From Trypanosoma brucei (lineage: Eukaryota), in NCBI GenBank assembly GCA_000002445.1, contig CP000067.1:64001-128000 (forward strand): a DNA stretch of 64,000 nt, written 5' to 3'. The stretch's first letter is position 1, and each line of letters opens with the position of its first letter. A program made the translations under genes and the position numbers. Positions 34,801 through 63,181 of the stretch are shown here, one piece after another. Under the pieces are notes generated by a model. The model did no database searches. It was not told the origin of the DNA and saw only the letters and a program-made list of their open reading frames with translations.

Positions 34801-36722
34801 ACACGCAAATCCTCATCATGCCCGAAGCATATTGAGAGCAGAGATGTTTTACTGTTTATAGCCACTTTCACCGAAAGCCACTCCTTATTGAAACATCTCA
34901 CATGAACAAGACCCATCGATGTGCACTGCTCTGCTCGGACGGGACAGAGAAAGAATTGAACACTGAGAGATTCGGCCTCTGGTGGAATCAGCAGTGTGGG
35001 CGGTCCAACGGTTCCGTGAACAGACATCGATGCACTGAATTTTGCATAGAATGGCGCACTCTTATTGGGATGAAAGTGGGGAATAACAAAGCGGTCCATG
35101 CCACTGTACACGTAAACGCCACTATTCCCATTCGTTTTGCAAGCCTCCAGTACACGGCGTACCTGAAGCGTTTCCGCATCGTAAAACGTCACGACGCCCA
35201 CAGTCTTCGATTGTACAGCAATTTGATTGTTCTCAAGAAAGACGCCACGACAGCCTGTTAGAGAAATATTTTCATTCTTGCAAACTAAGTTATAGGGAGG
35301 CACTAAAAGAACCTTATAAATCCCGCGTGTCGTTAGTACGACTCCGTGCAGTTCACCATTACGTGAAACAACACAAGCCCCAATAACACTGCGTGATATC
35401 TCCATCCCAAGGGAATGTGCTAAGGAAACATCGTGACACTTCACCCACGATGTGGGAAACAACACTCGCATCCGGGGTCTTGCATATGTTTCAATCGAAG
35501 TAATCCAAGGGCGGATGCCCTTCAGTGTAACCCTGTCCGCCAAATCAGGATGCCTATACACCCATCGAAAAATTGATAGTAATGAGTCGATATCCTTTGA
35601 TGCTAAAACCAATTTAAATAGAAGTTCAATGGCACCGAAAAGCCACCGCGAGTCACCTCCACCTCCACTAAAGGAACAACTTTCTTGTTCGACCTGCTGA
35701 AGCAGAATTCTGAAAACCCGCCGCATCCCCCACGAACGAAGAGTCTCATTGGTCGAGTTGATGCCACACCTGTCTATCACCTTGTGAAGCATACGCACGA
35801 CTTGCATGGGGACACGGGGATGCAATGAATCAGAAACCACAGCAATCGCCCAGTCGAAGCTACTTACGGTATCAACATCACTAACCGGTACACCACTTCT
35901 GGAAACACTTTGATCATCCTCAATGTCATCACCATCATCATCACAGGAATTTTCATCCTCCCAAGCTGACCGCACGGGCTCATCAAAGCATGTGCCACCA
36001 GTAAGCGATACGAGTTCCGCTTGTGTCGTTTCAGAGCTAGCAGCAGCCTTCACAAGCAAGCATCGGAGGAAAAGGGGGCTCAGAGTTCTCTGGCGGCGAG
36101 CAAACTCAACTGCTGTAAACCTTATGAAGCGGGCCACTTCTTCCGTGTCCGGGTGATGCACATTCAAAATATCAGGCAACTCAGGAAGCTGTGCAAAGGG
36201 AGCGAACGATGCGCCCTTTACAGGTGCCGGCACCAGCGGCCACGCTCTTGAAAAAAGATCCGCCGGACTGTACCTCACAAGATTATCTAAACTAAGAGAG
36301 ATCCCTCGCTCAGGATACACATTGATGTTTTCACACGGGTCCAGTTCGCTGTTAATATCCCACACGTTTCCATGAACTTGTCTCTTTGAAAAACGATACA
36401 TTTCGGGGACAACAACGGTATGTTTGATATTCCTCTCATCGTTCTCTTCGCGGCTGATTGATGGTCTCAAGGCACGCCGTCGCCGAGGTGGAGCCCTCGT
36501 TGTTTCAGGTAGCATCTGTTGGTGATGCGGCACGCTGGAATAACTATCTGTGCTAACGCTATCCTCCTGCGCGGCCGGAAGCTCCCTTACGTGAGCCTCT
36601 GAAAGCAACACCTCCGGCGGAATGTCTGTTAAGGAAGTCGGAACGGCCAACGCAAAAGGGCCCTCAACGGATGCCACCAGTTGGTGATTTGTGCCCCCTG
36701 CCGCCATTTCGGACTGCGCCAT
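16881..36722 (-). CDS. Giant HECT-domain E3 ubiquitin ligase with multiple SPRY domains. The track ORF starts at a TTG at 36740. The first ATG is residue 7 of the track translation (MAQSEMAAGG...), giving 6613 aa.
   Basis: Uninterrupted 19.8 kb ORF. The C-terminal ~390 aa match HECT, ending ...LPTSNTCFFTLRIPAYSSIDVMRDRILYAIRHC with the catalytic Cys in TCF. Upstream are at least six SPRY/B30.2-like modules, for example LYFEITLE...LFFTRNGEFLGIA...IPFVAVQ and GCYYIGLS...GEITYYRENMVRIGLAF...YPFVFHF. Plus-strand codons at 36720..36722 are cat (ATG) and at 36738..36740 are caa (TTG). Confidence 0.9.
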   Translation of the reverse strand: MAQSEMAAGGTNHQLVASVEGPFALAVPTSLTDIPPEVLLSEAHVRELPAAQEDSVSTDSYSSVPHHQQMLPETTRAPPRRRRALRPSISREENDERNIKHTVVVPEMYRFSKRQVHGNVWDINSELDPCENINVYPERGISLSLDNLVRYSPADLFSRAWPLVPAPVKGASFAPFAQLPELPDILNVHHPDTEEVARFIRFTAVEFARRQRTLSPLFLRCLLVKAAASSETTQAELVSLTGGTCFDEPVRSAWEDENSCDDDGDDIEDDQSVSRSGVPVSDVDTVSSFDWAIAVVSDSLHPRVPMQVVRMLHKVIDRCGINSTNETLRSWGMRRVFRILLQQVEQESCSFSGGGGDSRWLFGAIELLFKLVLASKDIDSLLSIFRWVYRHPDLADRVTLKGIRPWITSIETYARPRMRVLFPTSWVKCHDVSLAHSLGMEISRSVIGACVVSRNGELHGVVLTTRGIYKVLLVPPYNLVCKNENISLTGCRGVFLENNQIAVQSKTVGVVTFYDAETLQVRRVLEACKTNGNSGVYVYSGMDRFVIPHFHPNKSAPFYAKFSASMSVHGTVGPPTLLIPPEAESLSVQFFLCPVRAEQCTSMGLVHVRCFNKEWLSVKVAINSKTSLLSICFGHDEDLRVEVHEPLRSEWALWSATLQNTNGVFTWNVYKDAVMIKSCAVRCKVANLSTSTTGSVDLLRGSFSGFISNIQIWHRAQCINDMLTSAKGRLSPASQCGLLCSFKMNEGSGCCLRSSDGAITWKGVISWGPPPKVPFGCDVTEKEAIPYTPLGDYYVVTNTFETAIVEDGFCTWMDANGRILEQCTADVHPKELYFLCGFTSRMYSVICDVSSGLSLRWVDTQAPPAMHVRELESMRDEETVSEKFLELEGDKGIVTPFSLSNLILHRLNAVLVAEGRCCGGTQYTPQFFSWNSTSLRTVSRLIDISQDLILRVKQPLGRNSSSLLLLCVCGRLLTQQLTWIKRGCPPHLVAIIVDMFETLSRLEPEDRGILMETQFVFKELHRVLVMECVSYDYLLERILSTERLTDIKDLLVSDYIPSLVTSVLEKDLKKPFMAFLNRLKEACLAESQLILTGKGASFRPSCVLLPTLLSILSRKANPQWHLVAIALLNSLCKGTMRLFNGLFSNVASGHTGGTEELNLLKQTAIGVVVFPVVHYLVDLLLDSSIARDVLTLLNETRNVLYPYADILPAQYVNHNLTETHRIFVPAACTHTTSLDLRYARSIEVLHEHPTTRETNKVRVALVTNEGRRTFVTMRDEHLTIECGGRVEVTVTNTKKEESLITVNARVMLQTELSYWISDICLALGQAILHNTQQLLLKGLPDTVVFPQNSIFRGGLSEEVLKKHNVPGMSDEVLLDKEDQKELTDLFEGFGDLLSQWQELYRKKHVPYQDRLEYVMRAFCAAHAWHLRRTKNVSLLKHVEKSLDFMRKKSYLILEALQQGDEKAMLDRARFLLDTLNPRDRLESAMAEQQQTEEPVTRVSSPTSVHSVANVRTTLSKSAHVSHERTESWNVSALGRFTSSLSDLSKHCHEEVGSMNRPRIPLLTSDAISELVATNTESISTLVFKFLLNGCNGVTNEDLVRALVEKARYASNNKAVLRLQEKLLSSHQLDEDMSWLIVNSHLFYREFIRSRRREYSNEASNNVRTNSGYSEATLEDLTEVHYIEPIIGCGFQRELELQRATCSFFHCVIHRNFSRIVEAKLQCEASRGMEALSLCAVLCHPWDSVDLSAINPSKVFRVLKTYILAPIADTVVTPLNGSSTDIAWHRFLQDRGLFNLLYRSVIVPNSLQPAADGATVVEGDTLGVHVEGADICFLARNQWRAFKAEEAFDMSPAQRDCYAALAGGCVLADMAEVLYFEITLELALNEEVFVCIGVTSSSISSCESVGKDCSAAFCSDGTVRYSNANVEFSTPWSVGDVIGCGIMAPSSSLFFTRNGEFLGIATECTFSTIIPFVAVQTDGMLVKLIVNFGENAPFEFDMASLHSSCRTQTVSPVMISDASFIAVHYLVTVCLKNLQRLGQPGFNANGDSICALLEEASVFLRDVVVELVTSLKHLYSDESTHLLKRQRLHIGGVLLTRLFRIVNVVIDSFRCSLVSRSAHLEILRICSITLSEAHDHWVKARAARSLGHMARTLRQDCFAEAVEALRGSMSPDVIVNSLTELARAKIYPECSQRAFIPRWTGGRTRVTGGGAFYGEKPLPARGTHKVGFRIRRQMQMGHGVGASLGGCYYIGLSHGHTPVTTMASLISRDDVYILQDADDGDQVPHLLLRRQTIPRNSQRRVYGCDEVVWVELNADVGEITYYRENMVRIGLAFANIHRVDDLYPFVFHFNEDAVCDIIADPSQVKESCELLLSSLRRGVAVSVLQQLHVTPYFGPAISDWIYSFFVRSSYDLEKCIVALAILGGERSGLFCQHKTHGPVVVDSISESASRAVVYLEADPDGRQFSTDVADLKPSFVMPALFSVSEGESLRCCGWLTSGLRRILFEASAVVPLMNDEKEQRMDIAENFVKTITDAMNMEYTALQIIRHETTNQKGSVTLLRRNAPVSATQSTSSSFRMVNGQQPMSRTPVVIDRRFSTKSLFTPSPSIGVTSAAHYSAVRGNVVLEDVFSFAVSITIAESKGTLMYIGVTAETEEPAEPQAIVRCENIWALCNRDSEGTNNTNCFVEPGMIYSAGQLLFDSDDVVIIKVNRQEGTASFSRVRGGKCVDFGVLFEKIPEEKKLRPFVLTGPDSVVVFSFLDCHTFPARNTYPPSNISALTRSTPPVLCASCGSEMLEAWYEGEGGICLCSECFNSWRYPKCMFHFTDHNDNLTDYLLSQHSPKELVVGSIVGFMETAAFAWMRDKSVNVQIDGSTCIATDGAAFAVLDDFSTYGDSRVDVTVSHVAGVDGFSFGGLHSFDLLWCVNNLLQTSVSIKSNMILISPTVIPNSSKVVVSMLFLDEDIEPSPVDASAIFVGVTSEECDYRVMTSAEFERRIAHGNIWGTWSDSKTKAATPRSVYLSVDMTKGSIMLSSSLRGLHLHPTVATCNCPIEEDTNLRVIVFTRTPCQVTSTGGWVSVNDDALDINSSSVAVGLIPSNCIGPDIGIMGCNNLLFDTLSYTMAQCGTAWKVAPRIAEEGTGILFSIGDTITVERVDREVAAYRNGLLIATYTIPPETLLHRPRLVAYLSTRGMTATVVPPLFGKAHLGRVVRTCGSGVGVVKCLCPCQGKREYVVRKRDVRHCALSADAAAIVVGAKVAFKAGSLVQPKRGLVTSIGGNTVNVCDETDKRVCFSLDKNSIYVLDNEGPHKVLQPPYPALKAPDGSVTRVFVVGSTKFRLLRNESYNGIMFDVRAEDSVVLTGLTVLTHASGRHRVEVFFKKGSHQMHERTSGSWTKIFSNFVKMRAGRQFSVTFHGIRIEGGSTFALYINATHNFGVGHYAKEGGCSGAVSSEMDSDGTLTVLMGRTSESSTPFTDVSSNSCGFCGSIVYVRSEEAQALAVEETDSVVWREWDERNNDGCSDHLPLVSRPQMSTLSERAEFVVTVFDGPVVLRELLLPVFVQPYVGHTIGPMSFHVSLYCADVNDSTEGVTSRERNWVWVHHEVLLPKECSHRIVMNKLQLKMKRGTYVFSAVCERTMGMVRERGRERIRCFFTCSEQGHCVSNTFFSVRGLVGNILAVPANPMSVSEVLSAISTGGHLSQNNSASYNGIMFDIRSKQDVLLEEIFCISQTTADNINVRVFWKEGSMKGAEKVPSKWKEVATRYLYLADKQTFSPGPLNLQLRANQMYALYVNTTSSCGVRFYNSSDGHVGDVGDEFESDGVLTIYVGKKSEGIVPFLEIPSEPRAFRGRVTYRLIVQRRLLGRNMAVFPAVQGFVITRLLTALVAFASGPFSVTQPFEDTGVIESLGKLVKARPGNVGRQEISEDLLSGVVNGNLTDALGDGVVTLPFGVNGVAYFNSLCKGDLAVIALGSGEFSAGELVRLVSDPDIKSQVAVEVGRGGTPVCVTVPVDCLVPVIECGWCHQPFAVESVCQATGTVHFPALREEEHLISILARYIAQRWNLSFDAGSACASSLVRHTRSTNFAADRIIKARRHDSISGRALDSGSVEYMLSPELLHEDGWNEKCCSFACPFVYNENLAAFVSLLFTPLGDSWGVAFVTDLPLRLSSKSRPKLLQVSLHIVFGDDIEQDILYEPATYYAAHGGPLHEQLGVFAPSQYCFFVKRRGCDCLRLSICEMTFPPPTPFMSSVSHPWRWAGGYDTVELKPSEACELEGVFSTGAWPVNKPRFWKLGAVSATSANVFFLEVLVQLFRPIFKINWEGSRNSVIHRSFSLARDEELTLAFTADNDFVVYDEDDNVRCHVSYREHVGSSLKGISPKIAVMNVGPHPTSLYLHSPREVIDRGISTRSRSWSEGVVEYTPVWTLCNPSKVVISNKGRTASCNDASGQAVIGSPLPTVGLSGFVVQITRSDRAGGDSLGSGHFAGIVVSTFDQLEPHFVKLREQVDQVWIVQDVLDGDSLPTQERIPPIDSSGNTMFLAGTKLHFLLDRDNGTLSLARNNESPRVVFHNIPSNLSVSPFVRLDHANASATLATFYGGALGAGKFRAPPSVVLASHPITPTILRRIPFRVVVSTYTVLRHVLYSLPSDRVTAIELIWCDHCGNSKLAYRLSNALKQLAEVGAFSREMIRVEDKKLEEFCGQTAVRRVVDALSSPLDKPHVFIPGTADEGDTFIRLPSAYEVIGRVGGSSMVRLLYFDDNTTSKRTLHIFSHDDPEITVTSFNVVTKHPCVMYQEDIMQSLDSSKSFGVITHGWFDGTLNSLDMERFSKQQQKSIVMSLLAALEHWHLHSLIHGNIHPKNVYVKTGRGATVTCAVWNVYTLRRYDHFASPQLQRQGTRDMKGDLWSCAQLLRMFSTFLICEEGFRSAAGMLEKGNMTISYILDQLREFADDAKKSAGEETIFLQTGRQACIPGNSCSGIMFDVIAKRNKVNIVKVYFVSDTTSTATVTLFMRNGTFRGVEEQGGEWQVVMRRDMELARGVEAKVEGFESITISPGEHVAFFLHTTNHSSIMFYTVSEDGRPGLSNVALEDKYIGITAGRVTTCTLPFSSIQKEKQLLHGGITYTIPSQSCGYRSYLCQRVNARDLQFNRPVGGPVTVESLGRGLILCESGEQRLIFLGGTRMEWVQWETVSRVSFDDSPAWRQLEDDLRGVICGRYLSLGSLNPPHMQSSKLQFNRRICNQCAVTDRLTTEGDFFWWVSDPIRTSCIVSVKEISSVQGSSLFVSSSEGTDGEDLSKVESLDGKKHIFIYVDELGRCVTSLEDGGYRIVKKLQDDLSQAALFLVYGPVPTCEDIFPLSVFVNARSYNCDFTQFEDDTAVFSYDTSVPLEHNLLFNGFALKCCAVPHETPKFSVASCVTYRSDVSAVSLPFCDVPQTKEDAERDLSPILERQNHRRRLLLKFQRQQPWVEEEVTFSASPQHVTISNGCVQHVSSIGPQSCTVTKPVIEGLKLHEIELLVCTSVQFPARVTFQHPPTAWFVDVPIPIIPVHGESLILPTSSVKCVRLYIRVIPWAKRALVVVNGETVYEVLQGRDCPADMQLSFTLSAPGTSVKVVHWRVLHKEDSPVQRSAMDTIWTQLMIDRISPNVSQGMGSLGQHSWNTPAIGIQSGGESSLIPQVEEAMVSYAKKLIGTVIMSCNSSDTLKTLQHLLPYTTLRNDLSSLTALVRAEVRRSSFFLLAAAYACLAAPFAAQSAENVEVSVNLIYVSLSLDGVIHLLSTSFGSTLMLLLLRTATAHVRAVRNVALRCVLQLLKMSNCPLPSHEALCASLAPLLAVISSMCQRGKMSCTFVQLGILLVSELLQRYQLERPSLPAPGRQSCVPYAIVICTKLAIEAVTSKPPRPLPEAFTRGQQESHRISFELLTGPTSPEGYCSCYGVFSQTFRCTFGSKKFEVVLNSARCGNVVVGWNMDASLPGSLAAGTSDKDQSSASTLLPSCGYLIKPNGKIHLCLSRKKESQPLQVRAKGGDIVLVTCLYHEQAVIFNLQRESKNETTTRFETFPNEMLALPVFFAERREDATFHGEQLLTEASTGMDVSQLYSRFQEHPHRLDTEVVAQSFEFYAELSLFCQTFSISEKLLVSPNGDASLTVPSHDLVEYTHLLSFLGADVLGNDVPIERLVPYVKRLQIFDTLTAVFSVVVDIRRSTELFEMWKKLKSLCSAESSKKIQNETMRPFRNRTGHKGKVTIHTMHARASVRYGFYPTLMRSVFGQLFAQLQRSPISIFYVSPMFTVKLAGFGSTDVGGPYRDILSQLATEIMSTHPSGKFQQNPLFKDCGCDGQLAVMPNATMALEFQLFPMFEFFGKFLAACFITKDLLAVEFPPLFWKLLLSEETSLRDLRAMDRDIMRQLTPEALAERTAEELEERFPGLQESWLRFCSENSHLRMREELPPVDLRTAGILAEHIASIEVHKYDVVISHIRHGFGQVIPLYTLNAFRWQQVELIICGTPKLSCQALRDVCEVSLPSNDSQMFDEVIETMCDKDRMLLLRFTTGQTRLPLKENIKVKRGGTRDSLPTSNTCFFTLRIPAYSSIDVMRDRILYAIRHCEAIDTDGLAQEHIVLDA
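16884..18053 (-). other. HECT catalytic domain of the giant ligase (approx. residues 6230-6619).
   Basis: Motif content as described for the parent CDS. Coordinates come from residue counting, which I verified against the nucleotide sequence at one point (the HGNIHPKNVYV motif at ~22165-22200). Confidence 0.8.
21420..26699 (-). other. Three paralogous ~130-170 aa internal repeats of unassigned fold, each beginning (Y)NGIMFD(V/I). They lie at about 26301..26699, 25215..25616 and 21420..21812.
   Basis: YNGIMFDVRAEDSVVLTGLTVLTH...VEVFFKKGS, YNGIMFDIRSKQDVLLEEIFCIS...VRVFWKEGS and CSGIMFDVIAKRNKVNIVKVYFVS...VTLFMRNGT align by eye and share downstream ...I.G.S.A.Y...G... positions. Confidence 0.55.
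21951..22643 (-). other. Protein-kinase-like (probable pseudokinase) module inside the HECT ligase.
   Basis: EHWHLHSLIHGNIHPKNVYV resembles the kinase catalytic loop HRDLKPxN, with Arg-Asp replaced by Gly-Asn. KSFGVITHGWFDG resembles a Gly-loop. I see no DFG. I read the motif directly at nt ~22165-22200 on the minus strand. Confidence 0.5.
22971..31253 (-). other. Cluster of five SPRY/B30.2-like modules plus a Cys-rich zinc-finger-like segment. Approximate module spans: 30735..31253, 29661..30143, 28461..28883, 27141..27593 and 22971..23468. The zinc-finger-like segment CASCGSEMLEAWYEGEGGICLCSECFNS is at about 28251..28373. A sixth SPRY-like module lies at 18501..18908.
   Basis: Each module shows the SPRY pattern of hydrophobic beta strands and conserved Gly, ending in (P/V)FV...(F/L). 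I judged this by eye against the general SPRY consensus. Boundaries are approximate, within about 60 nt. Confidence 0.6.
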
Positions 36723-37306
36723 CACAGGCTTTGTCCACAAGCTAATTCTTCGACGGCAAGTTCAGGCGAGAGATATAACAAAATATGTGAAGCAAAAAAA
36801 AAAAAACAGTCTTAGACGATAATCCCCTTTTCAGATTGTGCTTTTCCTATTCGAATCCCCCTCCTTTCTTTTTCTCTTTGTTTGCGTTTGTACGCACCTT
36901 TAGTACCCTCTGTCCAAACCCGCCGAATAAGAGGAGAAGGGAGAAAAAAAAAGGCAAAAAGTTGTGCTACAGAAAGGGTAAGTGACTGAGTGAATAGCAA
37001 TGGCGACAATTCCTCAAAACCCTTAAATAATATACGGACACATTAACTGACTAGTGGAACTAGTAGGCGCGATCTGACTACACGGTGACTATCATCATCC
37101 CTGCCTAAATGCTTTCTTTATTATGTTAAGCACCGAGTCGTGCAGAGAAATTAACGGGCGCTCACAAAGATACACCAAATAATTATTATCACTTTGCCTT
37201 TTTCGGTACTCCTATATTTAGGCAAAAGAGATGAAGCACGTCCTTTCACTAAACACCCACAAGGTTGGAATATCCACTGCGAATGGGATGGCTCGTCGTA
37301 ACGCTC

Positions 37307-38939: not shown

Positions 38940-40079
38940 CTAGAACTTACCCTCACTGTTTAGATCCCTTCTTTTCGACAGTATCGCTTCGAGGAGTTGC
39001 TGATACACGTAGGTCGAGAAGACTGAAGTCAGTTTTCGTTGAAGCCACATTGGAATGTGACTTGGGATGCTGGCGTCGTTCGCAGATGTCATCACCACAA
39101 GAGTCCCGTCCAGTTTCCGGGTTTCTTTGAAATGACTGGTAGTCTCCATGAAAAGATTATACACTGCCTTTGTGTTCTCTTCGCTCACCATACTCCCACC
39201 AAACGACAAGCGATCCGGTTGCTTCCAAACTTGAGCTGTGACATCAGAAATAGGGACGATAAGTACGTGTTGATAATTCATAGAAACAAGAGAAACCTTC
39301 CGCCCTCCGCTGCATGACCGCATCCACTCGGCAAACCGCTCAGACTGTGTCCGCGCATGGTTTAGCATCTCGCCATCTCCACTATAGAGGACATCATACA
39401 TTCTCAGCGGATTGGCGTCGGCCCCCCCTTGCTTTGTGTAACACAAGGAACGACGTTGATAAATAAATAGGCGCTCTGCGATTCCAAATTTTTCCAACAG
39501 CGAGTTCCCCACCCTGTGGGCAAACCAACCGCTGTCGACAACGCAACTGGTGACATCTGGCAACAAGAGACATCTGTCACCCTCACAAACCGGAGTTTTG
39601 CGTGTCACATGCTCCATGGGGCGCCGTATAAGACCCAACGGGTCAATAAACTTCCGCGTGCCGTCGTCCCATCGACAAAACATTGTGTAATTGTGGTCCC
39701 ATTGCCGTCGCAGCTTGAGATCTGTCATGTGGCGGTGAACTTCCTCAGGAGCCACCCCAGGAAGGTAACCAATGAGACGAAGAACTGGCACTCCTCGACC
39801 ACCATTAGACACGGCGGTGTACGTTGTGCTTAGCCGAAGTACCTGCAACCCCGGTTCATTCCCTACGCTCTCTAACTTCGCTGGTGGCGGAAAACTTGTA
39901 CTTTCGATGCGCCACTGCCCTTTGTGTGCATCTAAAAAGTCCATGCATGCTAGAAGTTGCTCAGAACCACTCACAGGAGATGACAGTTCTTGCAGCCACA
40001 CGGAAGAACGCCTGGTGAAGGTGGCAACAGCGGCGGAAACGCAGAGAGTCGCAGTCCTCCTATAGAACGTTCGTGGCAT
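38940..40079 (-). CDS. Hypothetical protein with a START-like (StAR-related lipid-transfer / Bet v1-fold) region and a basic N-terminal presequence that could be a mitochondrial targeting signal. The track start is TTG. The ATG is residue 5 (MPRTFY).
   Basis: PEEVHRHMTDLKLRRQWDHNYTMF...RDFV-like...VVDSGWFAHRVGNS resembles the START-domain motifs (E..L.D...R..WD and GW.I.P.G). The N-terminus RTFYRRTATLCVSAAVATFTRR is Arg-rich and lacks acidic residues. Confidence 0.45.
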   Translation of the reverse strand: MPRTFYRRTATLCVSAAVATFTRRSSVWLQELSSPVSGSEQLLACMDFLDAHKGQWRIESTSFPPPAKLESVGNEPGLQVLRLSTTYTAVSNGGRGVPVLRLIGYLPGVAPEEVHRHMTDLKLRRQWDHNYTMFCRWDDGTRKFIDPLGLIRRPMEHVTRKTPVCEGDRCLLLPDVTSCVVDSGWFAHRVGNSLLEKFGIAERLFIYQRRSLCYTKQGGADANPLRMYDVLYSGDGEMLNHARTQSERFAEWMRSCSGGRKVSLVSMNYQHVLIVPISDVTAQVWKQPDRLSFGGSMVSEENTKAVYNLFMETTSHFKETRKLDGTLVVMTSANDASIPSHIPMWLQRKLTSVFSTYVYQQLLEAILSKRRDLNSEGKF

Positions 40080-40322
40080 AACTGTAGCCAAACACCTGCT
40101 TTCTCACTCTGCGGTGCTACTTACGTCGATTCCATTGGCGCACACAAACACACACAGACGTGAGATTGATTATAGTGGCGAGGACGATACACAATAAATA
40201 ATGAGAGGGAAGTGGTGAATCGGTAAAAGGTGCGGAAGATCAGTTGGATGAAGCGGTCGAGGTGGGAGAAAAAGATAGGCGGAAGAACGTTTGCAAGGAT
40301 TACGAATGTAAGGAACATGCAC

Positions 40323-40393: not shown

Positions 40394-41083
40394 TCACATT
40401 TCACCTAACCTCCCTTCTTTACGCATGAGAAGTACGCATTCGAGTTCCTTCTCCGCTAGTAGTGCGCTTGGGTACATTTGGTCAGCATTAACCAAAGTCA
40501 TAAAAGAACTCGGTGTACGAACCGTCTTTACTGCTTCAGCCAAGCCGCCCATACGAACCGCAATTACAGTGGAAACCCATAGATTAAATGGCCGTGGGCG
40601 AAAGCCTCCACGATGCACGGGGACACTTAGTTGGCACAAGTTCTTGGGCAGGACGAATAGATGACTTACATCTTTGGGTATGTTGTACCAACGCGGTTTA
40701 CCATCGGAAGATGCCGCAGCCGACAACGCCATCAAGCTGCCTTCACCTGAATTGTGTGGCAAAACGCCCCCAGGCGCAAGGAACTCCTTGTTTATTGGGA
40801 ACTTATACAATGTATCGCGTGCTAGCGCGGGTGATGATGCAAGTTGGACAAAACTCTCCCCGGTTAGAGGGGACCAAATGTTTAGAGGGCTGCACATGTA
40901 ACGCAGCGTCAGACCGAGAGCAGACGCAAGTTCACAGCTAAGCCAAAGAGGACTTCCGAGACGGTGCACATGCGCGAAATGGGTTACCTGCCGAACAGTG
41001 GAACAGTCTGTGATAAATTCCCTGGTGTCGAGAAGATACACCACTTGTGAAGAATTGTGACTCCCTCTACTTGTCAAACGCAT
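40394..41083 (-). CDS. Hypothetical protein, 229 aa.
   Basis: ATG-initiated ORF co-oriented with its neighbours. I could not assign a domain. VPVHRGGFRPRP weakly resembles a degenerate phosphatase P-loop. Confidence 0.4.
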   Translation of the reverse strand: MRLTSRGSHNSSQVVYLLDTREFITDCSTVRQVTHFAHVHRLGSPLWLSCELASALGLTLRYMCSPLNIWSPLTGESFVQLASSPALARDTLYKFPINKEFLAPGGVLPHNSGEGSLMALSAAASSDGKPRWYNIPKDVSHLFVLPKNLCQLSVPVHRGGFRPRPFNLWVSTVIAVRMGGLAEAVKTVRTPSSFMTLVNADQMYPSALLAEKELECVLLMRKEGRLGEM

Positions 41084-41870: not shown

Positions 41871-43397
41871 TTAATAACCTTTACGTCTTCGTTTACCCAT
41901 CCTCAGAGAGCGCCACACGACCTTTTCAGAATCACTATCGGAGTCCACGAAAAGATCTCCGCCGAGATGCAATTTGAGACACGTTTCCGCCTTCGCATGT
42001 GCGCATTTTAGCAGTGGCAAAGAGAATTGTAATCGACCGCAAGAATACAACGCGGTCGCGAACAACAGATCAGCGCTATTACCTATTAGCTGTTTATCGG
42101 ATACGGACGGAATATCGGCAGACGGCACCGATGCGAAGCGGAACGTATTCTTTTCTGCCTTCCACACCGTCTTGGTATTTGGATTGGATTCCAGGGTGAC
42201 GGATTCGAGAAAGAAAACATCCTCTACTTCGTGCATTTCTGAAGTGTCACTGACCGGCCCAACAGCGAGAGGCTCGGTTAGCACAAGTTGCTCCAACATT
42301 TTACTAAATTCAGCACAACGCGATGCTTTCAGGGGTCTCGAACTTCGAAGAGTTGAGACAATGCTTGTGGCAAGGGTCTCTCCACGTTGTGAAAGCAGTA
42401 AAAGCATGTGTCTGAAGGTACAGGTTCGAATCCACGATTTGGCTCCCAACGCTGGGAGCAAAGAGTACGTGCACGACACATGCGACAGAATAATGGAAAC
42501 CGCTTGCTGGATTACTGAAGATCTAAAGACAGTGCTTCGTTTACCCCAATATTCGATAATGTACTGCAATGCGCTCAATATGGTGTTATGTTTCATTTGG
42601 CAACGATATATGAAAGCAGCGGACGCTTGCTCAACAGAGGTCACACTACGTAACTCTTCCGTTGAAAGCAATAAGACTGCATTTACGGGAGGACGCTGCC
42701 GGCATATAATACGATCATCGTAGTAGGATAGCATCCCCAGCGCAAAACGATTCGCCGCCTCCTCCACAAGGTAGCGACGGTCTTGCAAAGATATTGCAGT
42801 CAGTATAGGAAAGGCCATTTCCAAATTATAGATAGTGATATATGTAGCTGAAGTGCGTGCGAGATAATAGAAAACCCACATCACGAGCTTCTTTAAGAAT
42901 AATTCCATAAACTGAGAAGTGGTACAGAGGCCGTTGCGCTCAGTTCCTGTCAGCATCTGTGCATGAAAACTCCACGAGTTGTGTACGGGTCGAAACATTT
43001 GAGTGTGGCCGCCTTCAGCACTCCCCAAGAACAACAATGCTTCAATGCGTCCGCGCTCGCGTTTTTGTGGAGCGAAAAAGGAGGTTGCGCCATCTTTATG
43101 AGTAAGTTGTATCATTTCGCTCCTCTTCTCACGCCGGAGAATGTCACCCACAACCGGAAAACAAACAGCTGGGGACCGCGTGACATCATGCGAGGACCAA
43201 TGAAGGCAATGGTTTTTCGTTTCACTCACCATTCGCCCAAAACCATGAGGCAGCTGCCCGAAGTATACCCCAGCGCGAGGTGGTGAAATAACAGGCTCGA
43301 CACCCCCACGACGCACAAGAAGTTCCGAAACATCAACAGGAGTCAAATGGGTGACTTGTGACAACACATTTTCTGTGGGTACATTTGCGCTTTTCAT
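41871..43397 (-). CDS. Hypothetical protein, 508 aa, with a Lys/Arg-rich C-terminus (possibly nuclear).
   Basis: ATG-initiated 1.5 kb ORF in the same orientation. C-terminus ...RSLRMGKRRRKGY. No family recognised. Confidence 0.5.
   Translation of the reverse strand: MKSANVPTENVLSQVTHLTPVDVSELLVRRGGVEPVISPPRAGVYFGQLPHGFGRMVSETKNHCLHWSSHDVTRSPAVCFPVVGDILRREKRSEMIQLTHKDGATSFFAPQKRERGRIEALLFLGSAEGGHTQMFRPVHNSWSFHAQMLTGTERNGLCTTSQFMELFLKKLVMWVFYYLARTSATYITIYNLEMAFPILTAISLQDRRYLVEEAANRFALGMLSYYDDRIICRQRPPVNAVLLLSTEELRSVTSVEQASAAFIYRCQMKHNTILSALQYIIEYWGKRSTVFRSSVIQQAVSIILSHVSCTYSLLPALGAKSWIRTCTFRHMLLLLSQRGETLATSIVSTLRSSRPLKASRCAEFSKMLEQLVLTEPLAVGPVSDTSEMHEVEDVFFLESVTLESNPNTKTVWKAEKNTFRFASVPSADIPSVSDKQLIGNSADLLFATALYSCGRLQFSLPLLKCAHAKAETCLKLHLGGDLFVDSDSDSEKVVWRSLRMGKRRRKGY

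Positions 43398-43995: not shown

Positions 43996-44003
<8 letters not shown>

Positions 44004-44028
<25 letters not shown>
44004..44028. repeat. (AT)12 microsatellite.
   Basis: Read directly in the intergenic region 43398..44153. Confidence 0.9.
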
Positions 44029-44153
44029 CAAGAAGCAGTGATGCATATTCTCCTCCTTCTCCGCTTTTTTTTGCTTATAGTACATACGGTAACAAAGTCA
44101 TCTCAAAGCAACGCACGTGACAGAACGACCGATGCCTCAAAGCTTTCCGTCTC

Positions 44154-44996
44154 CTACCTGAAGCCAAGTTCCTTTCCAACGTTCCCCTTTTTGAGTAACA
44201 TCAAGTAGTTAAGCCGAACTTTCTGCGACTCAGCACGGGGATTACTGCGAAAGATGGGAGCGAACCGTGTGGAATCACGGAAAATTCGGTAGAGAGCAAC
44301 AAAGTCATCTTCGTCCAGCGTTCCTCGTTGATAGAGCCCTGGGGGAAAGACAAACAAGTCACCCGTCTTTGCGTGAATGCGAATCCATTTGTCCTGCTTG
44401 GAACGCACATCAATGAAGCAAGATCCATCGACCACAATGCGTATCTGCTCATCCTCGTTGTAGTGTTCCTGATACCACCGTTCCAAAAACTGTTCATCCT
44501 TACACGTCTGCGAAAGTTTTACCTCATCTGTATGTTTGTAGTTGCGCTCCTTCACAATTTGCCTGACAACAGAGAAGTCGTTCAAGCTCACATTGAAATA
44601 TATTATACCAAGTTCCTTCAACTGTTGTAATGTCGGAACTGGTGCGTCACGCTTCCGACCTTTCTTCAGACTGGCCAGGCACAACTGCGGCTTTGAAGTT
44701 ACATCGTCAAGATACCACATATCTACGAGGCCATCATTCACTACCGAGGGCGGAATGGGTGGAAGGTCTTGAATAATATCCGACCCAAGTCGGCGCCACT
44801 CCTCCTCCTGCCGTTTACGCCTCTTTTCCTCCTCTATTCTCCGTTCCTCCGCCTCACGCCGCCTGTTTTCTTCTGCCTCACGCTCTGCTGCTGCACGGCG
44901 CTCCCGCTCCTCCTTTTCCTTCTGTCGCTTCAAATCACGCTCACGAATCTCCTGCTCTTCTTTGAGTCGTTGCGCCGCATCCGTGTCGGGTTCCAT
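44154..44996 (-). CDS. Acireductone dioxygenase (ARD/ADI1)-like cupin protein with a ~90 aa Arg/Glu-rich N-terminal extension. It is probably non-catalytic.
   Basis: The C-terminal 190 aa align with ARD: VDMWYLDD... ~ human MVQAWYMDD, and IDVRSKQDKWIRIHAKTGDLFVFPPGLYQRGTLDEDDFVALYRIF ~ [45 protein letters not shown]. Three of the four ARD metal-ligand positions, which I recall as H96, H98, E102 and H140 in human ADI1, are substituted: EEHLHLDDE reads QEHYNEDEQ here, and GIYHRF reads GLYQRG. Confidence 0.65.
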   Translation of the reverse strand: MEPDTDAAQRLKEEQEIRERDLKRQKEKEERERRAAAEREAEENRRREAEERRIEEEKRRKRQEEEWRRLGSDIIQDLPPIPPSVVNDGLVDMWYLDDVTSKPQLCLASLKKGRKRDAPVPTLQQLKELGIIYFNVSLNDFSVVRQIVKERNYKHTDEVKLSQTCKDEQFLERWYQEHYNEDEQIRIVVDGSCFIDVRSKQDKWIRIHAKTGDLFVFPPGLYQRGTLDEDDFVALYRIFRDSTRFAPIFRSNPRAESQKVRLNYLMLLKKGNVGKELGFR

Positions 44997-46515
44997 TTCT
45001 CACTTACACACGAACAAACTCTATTTTCTTTTTTTTTTAACTTTTACCTTTTCCTTTTTCTTATCTTGTCCTTCCTCCTTTTCTCACTGTGTGTGTATAT
45101 GCTTTTACAAGAATACTTGCTTTATTTGTTTAGCTATTGGCTTCGTCCGTCCTCGGAAAAGGTGTTGTGTTTTTTTTTTTTAAATCCCTGTATTCAACTC
45201 GCCCAGATCAATAATAAAGAACAAAAAAGAATATTATCTCCTTCGGTAATATATTCTTTCGTTTTGCAAGTTGCTGTAGTATTTGACTGTTTTTGTTTTT
45301 GTCGTCTTCTTTTTTTTTTTTGGCTGGTATCTTTTTTTCCTCCCTTTTTTCTTCTTTTAGGCTACTCGGTTGGTTGTGGTTCTACAAGTTGGTGGAAAAA
45401 AAAGGTGTGAAAAATGAGGGACGGTTTCACTTTGAATACGTGCTTTCAGCCATAATTAATATTTAACTTCAATTATTTGAGTTGAACATATTCTTCTGTT
45501 GTTATTATTCTTCACACCTCTTACCATCTATAACTATTGCAGTCAAGCATTCGACCTAGTGTTTAGTCACATAGTATTTTTTTCCTTTTTGTTTTGTTTA
45601 TTCTCTTAGCGTATTGATTTTTTTTTTAAAAAAAGCCTGACTTCTCCCCTTAAAGCAAGAAGGAAAAAAATAGTGACAATAATAAAAGCAACAATTCAGA
45701 CTGAGTTGTATGCAAAATACTATGACTTTTTAAATTATACGTTAATTTGTATACCCACCTGATGCATTTGTTCTCTCAGCAATGAAATTATACGACTGAC
45801 GTCTTTGGGAAAATGTAATAATAAAACGATAATACAAAGACGTATTGCGCGTGTCACAAGTAAATAATTTTTTTTGTTTTTTTACCCTCCAATTTATGCC
45901 TCTACAAGTCGTTGTATCCTCTGATTATGGTTTGTTTTTGTTTGTTTCTTTTTGTTTCTGTGGTTGTTGCATGTTGTCATTTCATACATCAGTCGTGTTT
46001 CACTAAGCGGTTACAATGCGTAGCAAGAACCACAAATGCAAAACGAAAACATATCGAAATGTACATTCAGAATTACGTGAGGATACCTTTATTTGATGTA
46101 AAACCTACCATTTTAAAAAAAAAGAGAGAGAGATTAACCAAAAAAAAAAAACAGTATGAATGACAAAAAAAAACTAACACATGCGCGCAGAGAAAGAGGA
46201 AAGCACAATCATTAACATCAAATAAAGAAATGTCACATGACTACGGCACAAGCCTGGTAAAATACAGAATTATAAGGCGAAATAAAACACAAAAAAACGT
46301 GCACGCTGAGATGCAAAACATATCTCATTTTCTATTGTGTATGTATTTAATACACGATTTCCCTTCCCCTTTCCCTCTATCCGCAACAGAAACACATGTT
46401 TTCCTCCTCTTTTTGGAGGTCGCTCATTCTACAAATACTCCCTCACCATTGGATGGACATCACAACCGGTACATCTCATTTTATTGCACCATCTTATGAT
46501 TTTGGAAATTTGTTA

Positions 46516-47736
46516 TCACAAATGAATACGAATGGATGGTAACATCCGCTTGCGACTCCTTTCGTATTCACGGGAAACCACAAAACAAATCATTGCAGCG
46601 TCGCGGTTTCCAAAAAGAGTCATCGACACATTAGCAAAATGAGTGTTGTAAACGCTGTTGTGTCGGAGTAATACAGCAGAGAGTATTCGATTCCTCACAT
46701 CTGAAACCGACGAAGACAAACGATTTGCCGCCTCCTCTAGGGAAATTTGCGAATATCGATACTTTACGCAAAAACGCTCAGCATTTGATACCATGAGATT
46801 CCAATGTAACGTACGCACAAGCAGCGCTTTCGCTTCACTTGAAGTGGTGTAATCCGCATCACTTAGTAAAACGAGGTGTATGCTCCGTCTCAAATGCTCA
46901 TCTTCAGTTAAAAGTGATTGGCCGTAATCCCTGGCAGCACGCGCGATGGCTTCCACCGTTACCCACGGAAGTTTATGGCCAGCGTTTAGTTTCATCACAA
47001 AGTCTATGAGTGCCCGTGACGTCAAGTCTCCATCATCATCAATTAAAGAAACCGCTTGCTTCAGTACATCTTCAGAGAAATCGGTGCACTGATAATCGCA
47101 ACTAAGCAACTTTTGGTGTCTTCCAGCAAGTTGAAATGCACTGCGACGCCTGCCACACTTCTCAAGTATTTTCCTCTCAAGCTGTTTCCACATCCCGGGT
47201 TCCGGGACATGTTTGTAAATGATGACATCCTCTTCATGCGAAAAGGGCTCTTGTGATGTAGCCATCGTATGGCGAAAATGCAAATAACACTGAAAGGCAC
47301 TTACTGGCTTTACCCTACTCGAGTCGTAATTAAGAGCGTCAGCAACTGTATGCCACTGTTTTGTATATGATTCCGCATTTGCTCCTAAACCGAGACAATC
47401 CGCCTGGCGCTTCAAATGTTGCACCGCACGGTGGCCCCAGCGAGGCTTTGACAACAGCGGTAAGACGTTATGCTGAAGTCTGCCAAATAGTGGAGGGGCA
47501 TAAACCATATTACAGTAATAAAATTTAAACACTATATCCTGATCTGCTCTCATTAACGGTGTCGTCCTATTTACAATTTTAGGTCTGACGCCCTCCGCCC
47601 TCAATGCACGAATGAGGGCAGCCATTGAAGCGAGCCGATGGGCGATATCATCTATTCTTTCACGAAGATGAGTTTGTAATCTCCTGTTGGCTTGCAACAA
47701 TGTTTCAAGGGCAACTAAGTCACCATCTATCACCAT
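46516..47736 (-). CDS. Hypothetical protein, 406 aa, with possible Myb/SANT-like Trp-spaced repeats.
   Basis: ATG-initiated ORF. W...W...W spacing (PRWGHRAVQHLKRQ...YTKQWHTVADAL, then GMWKQLERKILEKCGRRRSAFQLAGRHQKLL) weakly suggests a Myb-like fold. Confidence 0.45.
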   Translation of the reverse strand: MVIDGDLVALETLLQANRRLQTHLRERIDDIAHRLASMAALIRALRAEGVRPKIVNRTTPLMRADQDIVFKFYYCNMVYAPPLFGRLQHNVLPLLSKPRWGHRAVQHLKRQADCLGLGANAESYTKQWHTVADALNYDSSRVKPVSAFQCYLHFRHTMATSQEPFSHEEDVIIYKHVPEPGMWKQLERKILEKCGRRRSAFQLAGRHQKLLSCDYQCTDFSEDVLKQAVSLIDDDGDLTSRALIDFVMKLNAGHKLPWVTVEAIARAARDYGQSLLTEDEHLRRSIHLVLLSDADYTTSSEAKALLVRTLHWNLMVSNAERFCVKYRYSQISLEEAANRLSSSVSDVRNRILSAVLLRHNSVYNTHFANVSMTLFGNRDAAMICFVVSREYERSRKRMLPSIRIHL

Positions 47737-63092: not shown

Positions 63093-63181
63093 CCTTGGAT
63101 GTACGCAAGCACAAAGAAAGAGATGATAAAGAAATAGAAAAGAAGAAAAACTATAGAATTTACAGTTATAGAGGGGGGGGG
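63093..63181 (-). promoter_or_regulatory. Polypyrimidine tract plus AG, the presumptive spliced-leader acceptor region for TOR.
   Basis: Coding-strand sequence T6 C10 then CT-rich, ending ...tatag / ...caag immediately before the ATG. The plus strand shows G10 at 63172..63181. Confidence 0.6.

What the first reader, a model, noticed from the sequence alone, without database searches (positions are those of the whole stretch)
44154..44996. ARD (acireductone dioxygenase)-like cupin with three of four metal ligands substituted and an Arg/Glu-rich N-terminal extension
The C-terminal half aligns convincingly with methionine-salvage ARD/ADI1 (WY(L/M)DD start, DVR(S/D)K(Q/E)DKWIRI, LP.G(I/L)Y.R.T(L/V)DE). 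The His/Glu residues that bind Fe/Ni in ARD, which I recall as His96, His98, Glu102 and His140 in human ADI1, read H, N, Q and Q here. Metal-dependent dioxygenase activity is therefore unlikely. The enzyme core is fused to a highly charged segment of about 90 residues (EERERRAAAEREAEENRRREAEERRIEEEKRRKRQEEEWRR) that is typical of coiled-coil or nucleic-acid-associated regions. This looks like a repurposed pseudoenzyme.
Basis: partly seen in the sequence, partly recalled or inferred. Interest (0 to 1): 0.6.

Follow-up and report, generated by a model that had tools for sequence, protein, structure and literature searches.

The report
Dead ARD enzyme in trypanosome flagellum
This Trypanosoma brucei gene (Tb927.4.360) encodes a copy of the methionine-salvage enzyme acireductone dioxygenase that has lost its metal-binding residues and gained a long charged helix. 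Databases already flag it as probably inactive, and published work places it in the flagellar axoneme with the outer dynein arm, so it is real and fairly interesting but largely on record.

Summary
A 280-aa ORF on the minus strand (44154..44996) has an ADI1-type cupin (Pfam ARD, E=1e-24; model vs mouse ADI1, TM 0.89). HMMER alignment places H178, N180, Q184 and Q223 at the ligand positions H88/H90/E94/H133. An ~90-residue extension precedes the cupin. The protein is identical to T. brucei Tb927.4.360.

None of 69 kinetoplastid/diplonemid orthologues keeps the H-H-E-H set (mostly H-N-Q-H). Nearly all other ARD relatives that could be scored among the top 150 do. Trypanosomatids also carry a separate canonical ARD fused to a thioredoxin-like domain (Angomonas, 344 aa). 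The extension is coding, because it is conserved in every orthologue. It looks like an ER/K single alpha-helix, not a coiled coil.

A 2025 preprint, citing TrypTag, places the protein in the axoneme. The same preprint co-purifies it with outer-dynein-arm IC1 in a PIH1D1-dependent way. UniRef already names the T. cruzi orthologue "Probable inactive acireductone dioxygenase".

Verdict: a repurposed pseudoenzyme, most likely an outer-dynein-arm-associated axonemal protein. The pseudoenzyme status is already on record; the function is not known. Interest is moderate.

The parts
44154..44996 (-). Complete CDS (280 codons plus stop) of the ARD-like protein. [quoted passage not shown]
   Evidence: ORF; exact-sequence look-up; gene ID.
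44787..44981 (-). Residues 6-70: one continuous predicted alpha-helix, of the ER/K-rich single-alpha-helix type. Over residues 9-69 it is 34% Glu and 39% Arg+Lys, with only 5 strong hydrophobic residues.
   Evidence: AF2 model: helix 6-70, pLDDT 76-93. Charge-pair and heptad analysis. Conserved in all orthologues.
44724..44786 (-). Residues 71-91: linker. Together with L70, the last residue of the preceding helix part, it carries the clade-invariant motif L70-G71-x-D73-x-I75-..L78-x-P80-x-P82 (LGSDxIQxLPPVPPS). This motif is absent from canonical ARDs.
   Evidence: Invariant columns; comparison with 60 canonical ARDs.
44250..44723 (-). Residues 92-249: ARD/ADI1-type cupin domain.
   Evidence: Pfam PF03079, E=1.1e-24. 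phmmer to 1vr3, E=1.8e-26. Foldseek to 1vr3: target-normalised TM 0.89, rmsd 2.1 A.
44496..44540 (-). Residues 153-167, Y-K-H-T-D-E-x3-S-Q-T-C-K-D. This is a clade-specific patch that is invariant or nearly so (K154, H155, E158, Q163, T164, K166, D167). It replaces the canonical 'Y-S-Y-M-D-I..K-D-x-L-P-N-Y' and is a candidate new interaction surface.
   Evidence: Family versus canonical column comparison; residue counts.
44463..44465 (-). H178: ligand position 1 (mouse H88). Retained, and invariant in the family.
44457..44459 (-). N180: ligand position 2 (mouse H90). Substituted. Across the family: N 47, T 14, H 3, others 5 of 69.
44445..44447 (-). Q184: ligand position 3 (mouse E94). Substituted. 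Q in 65 of 69 family members, against E in 100% of 60 canonical ARDs.
44328..44330 (-). Q223: ligand position 4 (mouse H133). Substituted in T. brucei and T. congolense, but H in 58 of 69 orthologues; K, R, L or V in others.
44157..44249 (-). Residues 250-280: C-terminal segment containing predicted helices at 259-270 and 273-276. It ends in the clade-specific K-K-G-N-V-x-x-E-L-G-F tail.

Best explanation
Tb927.4.360 is a non-catalytic (pseudoenzyme) paralogue of acireductone dioxygenase. It arose before kinetoplastids and diplonemids split. It works as a structural, adaptor or regulatory protein of the flagellar axoneme, associated with the outer dynein arm (ODA).

Shown here or in the cited literature:
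- The intact ADI1 cupin fold is kept, but the 3-His-1-Glu metal site is dismantled. The family has H-N/T-Q-H and T. brucei has H-N-Q-Q.
- A canonical ARD (H-H-E-H) fused to a TXD17-like thioredoxin exists separately in trypanosomatids.
- The preprint, citing TrypTag, reports the protein as axonemal. It co-purifies with ODA intermediate chain IC1 only when the heavy chains are incorporated (PIH1D1-dependent).

Inferred:
- The cupin acts as a protein-binding module. Candidate surfaces are its clade-specific invariant patch (KHTDE...SQTxKD), the LGSDxIQxLPPVPPS linker and the KKGNVxxELGF tail.
- The ~65-residue (~10 nm) ER/K single helix acts as a rigid spacer or as a rod lying along a tubulin or coiled-coil surface. 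It would position the cupin on or next to the assembled ODA.
For: Fold and family:
- Pfam ARD 87.8 bits; phmmer to ADI1, E=2e-26.
- AF2 model pLDDT 88.8; Foldseek to 1vr3, TM 0.89.

Ligand loss:
- The alignment gives H178/N180/Q184/Q223.
- 0 of 69 orthologues have H-H-E-H: HNQH 38, HTQH 11, HNQQ 6.
- Among the top 150 ARD relatives in 1.84 billion representatives, about 110 could be read by a motif scan. Nearly all of those read H-H-E-H. The clear exceptions are the kinetoplastid/diplonemid clade (P0070, P0075, P0076, P0087, P0090, P0096, P0146; taxa for five of these seven, P0076 and P0096 unnamed). Two other hits gave odd reads that were not followed up.
- Position 223 varies as H/Q/K/R/L/V.

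Canonical paralogue:
- Angomonas deanei P0197, 344 aa, is ARD (H-H-E-H) plus TXD17-like thioredoxin.
- LmxM.20.0970 is also 344 aa.
- Chavali 2008 listed two L. major ARD-like genes, LmjF20.0970 and LmjF34.4600.

Pathway context: Alves 2013 notes that KEGG lacks three upstream methionine-salvage enzymes in T. brucei.

Curation: UniRef names the T. cruzi orthologue 'Probable inactive acireductone dioxygenase'.

Constraint: identity to the query is 92% (T. congolense), 65% (Leishmania) and 62% (Bodo) over the full length, helix included.

Helix type: 28 i/i+4 salt-bridge pairs against 16.5 +/- 3 in shuffles. At most 3 of 17 a/d heptad positions are hydrophobic.

Axoneme and ODA:
- The bioRxiv preprint 10.1101/2025.07.26.666928 states the axonemal localisation (citing TrypTag). 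It also reports loss of IC1 association on PIH1D1 RNAi in both trials.
- In the part of its trial-1 table that was read (top ~32 rows per column), the protein is at emPAI 0.45 in the YFP-IC1 pull-down. It does not appear in the GFP-control or PIH1D1-RNAi columns. Heavy-chain emPAI falls from 0.54/0.35 to 0.13/0.08.
Against: - No metal-binding or activity measurement exists. H178 and, in most species, H223 remain, and a Gln can ligate metal in some cupins (for example type I phosphomannose isomerase; my own knowledge). Residual metal or ligand binding therefore cannot be excluded for the family.
- The second-shell pocket residues are all retained (R186, D196, R198, W204, R206, R224). This could mean the pocket is still used.
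- The ODA link rests on one unreviewed IP-MS data set of modest abundance.
- I could not see the TrypTag record directly. The gene ID was not found in the held TrypTag, APEX2 or Leishmania flagellar-proteome supplement texts; at least the Leishmania files are marked as cut when stored.
- The protein is absent from every solved structure in the 2026 PDB copy, which as far as I know includes trypanosome axoneme entries.
- The role proposed for the helix is inference only.
Confidence: 0.6

Rival explanations
1. It is a cytoplasmic ODA pre-assembly, packaging or transport factor. It would work like Shulin/DNAAF9 or ODA16: bind the fully assembled ODA holo-complex and travel with it, rather than being a permanent axonemal subunit.
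For: It was recovered in a YFP-IC1 pull-down in a study of cytoplasmic ODA pre-assembly. It appears only when heavy chains have joined the IC-LC complex.
Against: The preprint, citing TrypTag, says the protein localises to the axoneme. There is no sequence or fold similarity to known DNAAFs or Shulin: Pfam and PDB searches return only ARD and cupins.
Confidence: 0.15
2. It is a metabolite- or partner-binding regulator that still uses the ARD pocket. It could sense a small molecule, or bind and inhibit enolase. This would couple flagellar energy metabolism or a metabolic signal to dynein activity.
For: The pocket-lining second-shell residues remain invariant (R186, D196, R198, W204, R206, R224). 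H178 and Q184 are conserved. A 2018 paper title reports that T. cruzi enolase is inhibited by 'a putative acireductone dioxygenase'; I saw this only as a reference entry.
Against: The same residues are invariant in all ARDs, so they may simply hold the fold together. It is not known which T. cruzi ARD paralogue was used in the enolase study, and the paper could not be read. No ligand is known.
Confidence: 0.12
3. It is a genuine, active acireductone dioxygenase, as the genome annotation says, using a relaxed or relocated metal site (for example H178, H155, E183, H208/H223).
For: [quoted passage not shown] It was used to fill the methionine-salvage gap in a Leishmania metabolic model. H155, a clade-specific His, is invariant.
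Against: Three of four ligands are lost in T. brucei, and none of 69 orthologues has the full set. Positions 180, 208 and 223 vary freely. E183 is not compensatory, because canonical ARDs also carry D/E there. A canonical paralogue exists in trypanosomatids. Upstream pathway enzymes are reported missing in T. brucei. The reported localisation is axonemal. The curated name for the T. cruzi orthologue is 'Probable inactive'.
Confidence: 0.05
4. It is a nuclear or nucleic-acid-associated or coiled-coil scaffold protein, as the first reader suggested from the Arg/Glu-rich segment.
For: The N-terminus is highly charged. There are weak sub-threshold Pfam hits to eIF3 subunit, CDC45 and the CAF1A acidic region, E=0.06-0.5.
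Against: Those hits are low-complexity noise, far below their gathering scores. There is almost no heptad hydrophobicity, and i/i+4 salt bridges are strongly enriched, which fits an ER/K single helix. The helix net charge is only +2. The reported localisation is axonemal.
Confidence: 0.03

Closest known systems
Mammalian ADI1 / MtnD (acireductone dioxygenase; PDB 1vr3, 5i8s, 4qgn)
   Same: The whole-domain fold matches (TM 0.89, rmsd 2.1 A, 32% identity). The ARD hallmark residues are kept: W94, E177-H178, D182, R186, G191, D196-x-R198, W204-x-R206, G220, R224, R237, R261-xx-Y264.
   Different: Ligands H90, E94 and H133 are replaced by N, Q and Q. It has an extra 91-residue N-terminal helix plus linker and a clade-specific C-terminal tail. 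The protein is reported as axonemal rather than as a metabolic enzyme.
T. cruzi orthologue, UniRef 'Probable inactive acireductone dioxygenase' (EAN84269.1/EAN86407.1, 282 aa)
   Same: The T. cruzi cluster representative P0007 is 76-77% identical to the query. It has the same architecture and the same H->N and E->Q substitutions. The curated name already states the pseudoenzyme idea.
   Different: T. cruzi keeps the fourth-position His (HNQH); T. brucei has lost it as well (HNQQ). The T. brucei entry itself is still named as an Fe(2+)-requiring ARD.
Trypanosomatid canonical ARD-thioredoxin fusion (Angomonas deanei AGT02502.1, 344 aa; presumably LmjF20.0970/LmxM.20.0970)
   Same: It is an ARD domain from the same organisms, 28% identical to the query over 187 residues.
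   Different: It has the complete H-H-E-H set, no N-terminal helix and a C-terminal TXD17-like thioredoxin domain. It is the likely true enzyme.
Diplonemid degenerate ARD-like proteins (Lacrimia P0075, Artemidia P0069/P0087, Namystynia P0071, Rhynchopus P0090, Diplonema japonicum P0146)
   Same: They have N-terminally extended ARD cupins, with the shared W-x-x-L-G-(P/S)-(D/E) junction motif in the closer members (a W-x-x-L-(S/T/P)-P-E variant in most of the divergent group). They share the C-terminal '...G-x-V-x-x-(E/D)-x-x-F' tail and have degenerate ligand sets.
   Different: The closest ones (P0069, P0071) still have three His (H-H-Q-H). The divergent group has non-polar residues at position 3 and a different N-terminus, with RRNS motifs.
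ER/K single-alpha-helix domains (for example myosin-10, myosin-6, caldesmon; my own knowledge)
   Same: Both show about 75% E+R+K content, strong i/i+4 opposite-charge periodicity and almost no hydrophobic seam. AF2 predicts one uninterrupted 65-residue helix.
   Different: Monomeric stability has not been shown experimentally. In an axonemal setting the helix might instead lie on a tubulin or coiled-coil surface.
Lineage-specific or accessory ODA-associated proteins (docking-complex subunits, Shulin/DNAAF9; my own knowledge)
   Same: It behaves alike: it co-purifies with the assembled ODA and depends on heavy-chain incorporation.
   Different: There is no homology to any of them. Its position in the axoneme is unknown.

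Membership tests
ARD/ARD' cupin family (Pfam PF03079), as a fold/homology family | Significant match to the family HMM above the curated threshold | tested here: met
   87.8 bits against a cutoff of 27, E=1.1e-24, residues 123-243. phmmer to mouse, human and Bacillus ARDs.
ARD/ARD' cupin family (Pfam PF03079), as a fold/homology family | ADI1-like three-dimensional fold | tested here: met
   AF2 model with pLDDT 88.8. Foldseek top hits are 1vr3 and 4qgn, TM 0.88-0.89, rmsd 2.1-2.7 A.
Catalytically competent acireductone dioxygenase (MtnD/ADI1, EC 1.13.11.53/54) | 3-His-1-Glu metal ligand set (mouse H88, H90, E94, H133) | tested here: not met
   The query has H178, N180, Q184 and Q223. 0 of 69 orthologues have H-H-E-H. 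Nearly all scorable canonical relatives do.
Catalytically competent acireductone dioxygenase (MtnD/ADI1, EC 1.13.11.53/54) | Ligand positions held under purifying selection among orthologues | tested here: not met
   Position 180 is N/T/H/S/A/M/L. Position 223 is H/Q/R/K/L/V.
Catalytically competent acireductone dioxygenase (MtnD/ADI1, EC 1.13.11.53/54) | Genome encodes the upstream steps that make acireductone (MtnA, MtnB, MtnC/enolase-phosphatase) | not testable with these tools
   No trypanosome genome is searchable here. Alves 2013 reports that KEGG lacks EC 3.1.3.77 and the two preceding enzymes in T. brucei.
Catalytically competent acireductone dioxygenase (MtnD/ADI1, EC 1.13.11.53/54) | Measured metal binding and dioxygenase activity | not testable with these tools
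   This needs recombinant protein. No report was found.
ER/K single alpha-helix (SAH) domain | Long helix rich in E, R and K, with enriched i/i+4 opposite charges and no hydrophobic heptad seam | tested here: met
   Helix 6-70 in the model. 34% E and 39% R+K; 28 pairs against 16.5 +/- 3 (0/2000 shuffles); at most 3 of 17 a/d positions hydrophobic.
ER/K single alpha-helix (SAH) domain | Stable as an isolated monomeric helix in solution | not testable with these tools
   This needs circular dichroism, analytical ultracentrifugation or SAXS on the peptide.
Outer dynein arm / docking-complex component | Homology to a known ODA heavy, intermediate or light chain, or to a docking-complex subunit | tested here: not met
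   Pfam and PDB searches, by sequence and by fold, return only ARD and cupins.
Outer dynein arm / docking-complex component | Axonemal localisation and co-purification with ODA subunits | not testable with these tools
   Literature only. The preprint reports axonemal localisation (citing TrypTag) and PIH1D1-dependent IC1 association. I could not find the gene ID in the held TrypTag, APEX2 or Leishmania supplement texts.

The most novel reading that the evidence does not exclude
The protein is a stoichiometric subunit of the outer dynein arm, or of its docking or regulatory apparatus, specific to Glycomonada (kinetoplastids plus diplonemids). It was built from a dead methionine-salvage enzyme and is held at a fixed ~10 nm offset by an ER/K ruler helix. 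Its conserved cupin pocket and KHTDE/SQTxKD patch would bind a partner or a small molecule to tune dynein activity. It could then contribute to the unusual tip-to-base beat of these flagellates.
Probability: 0.2. Interest if true: 0.65.

Novelty: already known. Interest (0 to 1): 0.38.

Why it matters
[quoted passage not shown] They were used to close the methionine-salvage cycle in a Leishmania metabolic model. The sequence evidence says this paralogue should not be counted as that enzyme. In trypanosomatids the 344-aa ARD-thioredoxin fusion is the plausible catalyst.

**Biological value.** A cupin pseudoenzyme with an ER/K helix that tracks with the assembled outer dynein arm is a well-defined candidate for a lineage-specific motility component. 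It sits in a parasite group where flagellar motility is essential and where lineage-specific axonemal parts are of interest as targets.

**What is and is not new.** The pseudoenzyme status (UniRef name), the localisation (TrypTag) and the ODA co-purification (2025 preprint) are each already on record. What this analysis adds:
- a clade-wide picture of which ligand positions are lost, and where;
- the canonical paralogue;
- the SAH character of the N-terminal helix;
- the extension of the family to diplonemids.

Tried and rejected
1. **Search for a canonical kinetoplastid ARD.** I queried search for homologous proteins with a diplonemid canonical ARD half. I then queried with an unnamed ~230-aa hit that I guessed might be from Leishmaniinae. 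The paralogue was finally found another way. A Leishmania proteome supplement gave LmxM.20.0970 as 344 aa, and naming same-length hits from the phmmer list led to Angomonas.

2. **Does T. brucei itself keep the 344-aa ARD-thioredoxin gene?** This could not be tested, because no trypanosome genome collection is available.

3. **Direct confirmation of localisation or proteome membership.** The gene ID was not found in the held supplement texts of TrypTag, the APEX2 flagellar proteome or the Leishmania flagellar proteome. The Leishmania files are marked as cut when stored. These results therefore say nothing either way.

4. **The T. cruzi enolase/'putative ARD' paper** is not held, so which paralogue it used is unknown.

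5. **Foldseek against afdb50** was unavailable.

6. **PDB search.** No identical or near-identical chain exists, so the protein is not modelled in any deposited structure.

7. **Start at the internal Met of VDMWYLDD.** Rejected. There are no in-frame start candidates upstream of M1, and all orthologues conserve the extension in length and sequence.

8. **Coiled coil.** Rejected on heptad analysis.

9. **E183 as a compensating carboxylate.** Rejected, because canonical ARDs also have D/E at that position next to the ligand Glu.

10. **Model coordinates are not exposed.** I could not test whether the clade-specific H155/E158/D167 cluster sits near the old metal site.
Full report
**What is there**

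The finding's coordinates hold a 280-codon ORF on the minus strand (44154..44996, ATG start). All the large ORFs identified as genes lie on the minus strand. The neighbours are:
- three RHS genes;
- a 6619-aa SPRY-HECT ligase;
- an SLC35F transporter;
- a WD40 protein;
- an RRM protein;
- Rcd1/CAF40;
- a TOR kinase.

This context fits the left end of Trypanosoma brucei chromosome 4. [quoted passage not shown] Two papers give the gene ID as Tb927.4.360.

**Checking the observation**

The C-terminal two-thirds is an ARD/ADI1 cupin.
- Pfam PF03079 scores 87.8 bits against a cutoff of 27, E=1.1e-24.
- phmmer to mouse ADI1 gives E about 2e-26.
- An AlphaFold2 model built on 69 orthologues has pLDDT 88.8.
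- The model superposes on mouse ADI1 with target-normalised TM 0.89 and rmsd 2.1 A.

In the HMMER alignment to 5i8s (native numbering), H88, H90, E94 and H133 pair with H178, N180, Q184 and Q223. All quoted motifs are present, with 'FP' in place of 'LP'.

**Is the ligand loss meaningful?**

I aligned 69 full-length relatives and counted the four positions.
- None has H-H-E-H.
- The majority pattern is H-N-Q-H (38), followed by H-T-Q-H (11) and H-N-Q-Q (6, including T. brucei and T. congolense).
- H178 is invariant and Q184 nearly so (65 of 69).
- Position 180 is N/T/H/S/A/M/L. Position 223 is H/Q/R/K/L/V.

Two substitutions are thus ancestral to the family. The third is a later loss at a position that is no longer constrained.

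As a control, I ran an exhaustive phmmer search of 1.84 billion representatives and a motif scan of the best 150 hits. About 110 of the 150 matched the scan pattern, and nearly all of these read H-H-E-H. The clear exceptions belong to this clade; most carry diplonemid or Prokinetoplastina names (Lacrimia, Artemidia, Rhynchopus, Diplonema, PhF-6) and two are unnamed. Two further hits gave odd reads that I did not follow up.

Against 60 canonical ARDs, the family keeps the fold-defining residues. It also has its own invariant patch (K154-H155-T156-D157-E158, S162-Q163-T164-x-K166-D167), a linker motif (LGSDxIQxLPPVPPS) and a C-terminal tail. E183 is not a compensating carboxylate, because canonical ARDs carry D/E there as well.

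**Is there a separate real ARD?**

Yes, at least in trypanosomatids.
- Chavali et al. 2008 listed two L. major ARD-like genes, LmjF20.0970 and LmjF34.4600.
- L. mexicana LmxM.20.0970 is 344 aa.
- A 344-aa hit in my phmmer list is Angomonas deanei 'iron(II)-requiring acireductone dioxygenase'. It has H-H-E-H and a C-terminal TXD17-like thioredoxin domain, and is 28% identical to the query.
- The 279-aa Leishmania orthologues of the query sit on contigs of about 1.45-1.9 Mb, a size I take to fit chromosome 34.

Whether T. brucei itself keeps the 344-aa gene could not be tested. Alves et al. 2013 note that KEGG lacks three upstream methionine-salvage enzymes in T. brucei.

**The N-terminal extension**

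It is coding.
- There are no in-frame start candidates upstream of M1.
- Every orthologue from Trypanosoma to Bodo, Trypanoplasma and Prokinetoplastina is about 280 aa.
- Every orthologue has an aligned charged segment, at 58% mean identity to the query over residues 9-69.

AF2 predicts one uninterrupted helix spanning residues 6-70. Its properties are:
- 34% Glu and 39% Arg+Lys;
- only five strong hydrophobic residues;
- at most 3 of 17 a/d heptad positions hydrophobic;
- 28 opposite-charge i/i+4 pairs against 16.5 +/- 3.0 in shuffles (0 of 2000 reach 28);
- net charge of only +2.

This is the signature of an ER/K single alpha-helix. It is not the signature of a coiled coil or of a basic nucleic-acid-binding tract.

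**What it does**

My tools cannot localise a protein, so this part rests on the literature.

A 2025 bioRxiv preprint on ODA biogenesis states that Tb927.4.360 is axonemal (citing TrypTag) and of unknown function. It also reports that the association with YFP-IC1 is lost on PIH1D1 RNAi in both trials.

In the part of its trial-1 table that I read (top ~32 rows per column):
- the protein is present at emPAI 0.45 with the ODA heavy, intermediate and light chains;
- it does not appear in the GFP-control or PIH1D1-RNAi columns;
- in the PIH1D1-RNAi column the heavy chains drop about four-fold while the IC and LC subunits persist.

The protein therefore follows the heavy-chain-containing holo-ODA.

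Other points:
- Ribosome profiling lists it among mRNAs translationally up-regulated in procyclic forms.
- Conservation is high: 92% identity to T. congolense, 76% to T. cruzi, 65% to Leishmania and 62% to Bodo. From my own recollection of the TriTryp comparison, this is well above the average for orthologues. It fits a protein locked into a large assembly.
- No deposited structure contains it.

**Mechanism, with what is shown and what is inferred**

Shown:
- the intact ADI1 fold;
- a dismantled metal site;
- a clade-specific conserved patch, linker and tail;
- an ER/K-type helix;
- a canonical paralogue elsewhere in the lineage.

Reported by others:
- axonemal localisation;
- heavy-chain-dependent ODA co-purification.

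Inferred:
- the cupin has become a protein-binding module;
- the ~10 nm helix is a spacer or a surface-lying rod that positions the cupin on or beside the ODA.

Rivals:
- an ODA packaging or transport factor;
- a pocket-using regulator, possibly linked to enolase. A T. cruzi 'putative ARD' is reported to inhibit enolase, but I saw only the title;
- a true enzyme with a relaxed metal site, which is unlikely;
- a nuclear or coiled-coil protein, which is disfavoured.

**Novelty**

The central point is already in curated data. UniRef names the T. cruzi orthologue 'Probable inactive acireductone dioxygenase'. Localisation and ODA co-purification are also public. No paper in the searchable library discusses the pseudoenzyme, and the phrase itself returns nothing. 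The T. brucei and Leishmania entries still carry the enzyme name.

I therefore rate the finding as already known in kind and of moderate interest. It has a useful annotation consequence, and its function remains open and testable.

Noticed in passing
Related proteins P0197/P0454 (Angomonas deanei, 344 aa), P0133 and P0138 (unnamed, 343/345 aa): The canonical ARD (H-H-E-H) is fused to a C-terminal TXD17-like thioredoxin domain with a G-K-S-W-C-P-x-C motif. This appears to be the real trypanosomatid ARD and matches the 344-aa LmxM.20.0970. A redox partner fused to a dioxygenase is unusual and, as far as I could see, has not been discussed.
   Followed up: partly
Related proteins P0077 (Flectonema neradi, 381 aa), P0074 (Entophlyctis chytrids, 377 aa), P0079 (unnamed, 344 aa): These are tandem-duplicated canonical ARD domains within one polypeptide, both copies with H-H-E-H. 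They occur in a diplonemid and in chytrid fungi.
   Followed up: no
Related proteins P0087, P0090, P0096, P0146 (Artemidia, Rhynchopus, Diplonema japonicum; 310-333 aa): Diplonemids carry a second, more divergent group of degenerate ARD-like proteins. Ligand position 3 is non-polar or otherwise non-ligating, and the N-termini are longer, with RRNS motifs. They exist alongside the closer orthologues (P0069, P0071, P0075), so the pseudoenzyme family was duplicated there.
   Followed up: partly
window 16881..36740 (-): A single 6619-aa ORF with a SPRY domain in its N-terminal third (about residue 1,900) and a C-terminal HECT ubiquitin-ligase domain. It is a giant E3 ligase.
   Followed up: partly
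window 1711..3408, 7146..8843, 12576..14294 (-): Three tandem ORFs of 565-572 aa with DUF7578, RHS_N and the RHS P-loop domain (retrotransposon hot spot family), spaced about 5.4 kb apart. Two begin at GTG in the mechanical ORF call, so they may be truncated or have mis-set starts.
   Followed up: no
window 55854..63221 (-) and 53385..54341 (-): A 2455-aa TOR kinase (mTOR_dom, FAT, FRB, PI3/4-kinase, FATC) lies next to an Rcd1/CAF40 homologue. From memory this fits Tb927.4.420 (TOR2) and Tb927.4.410 (CAF40), and so supports the chromosome-4 placement.
   Followed up: partly
window 44997..45400: The 5' flank immediately upstream of the ARD-like ATG is purine-rich on the coding (minus) strand, appearing as long pyrimidine runs on the plus strand. 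The polypyrimidine tract and splice-acceptor for trans-splicing must therefore lie further upstream in the ~1.5 kb intergenic region. (TA)n microsatellites flank the gene's 3' side (about 43990-44030).
   Followed up: no
window 38940..40091, 40394..41083, 41871..43397, 46516..47736 (-): Four neighbouring ORFs (383, 229, 508 and 406 aa) have no Pfam match at E<=0.001. They are presumably kinetoplastid-specific hypothetical proteins.
   Followed up: no
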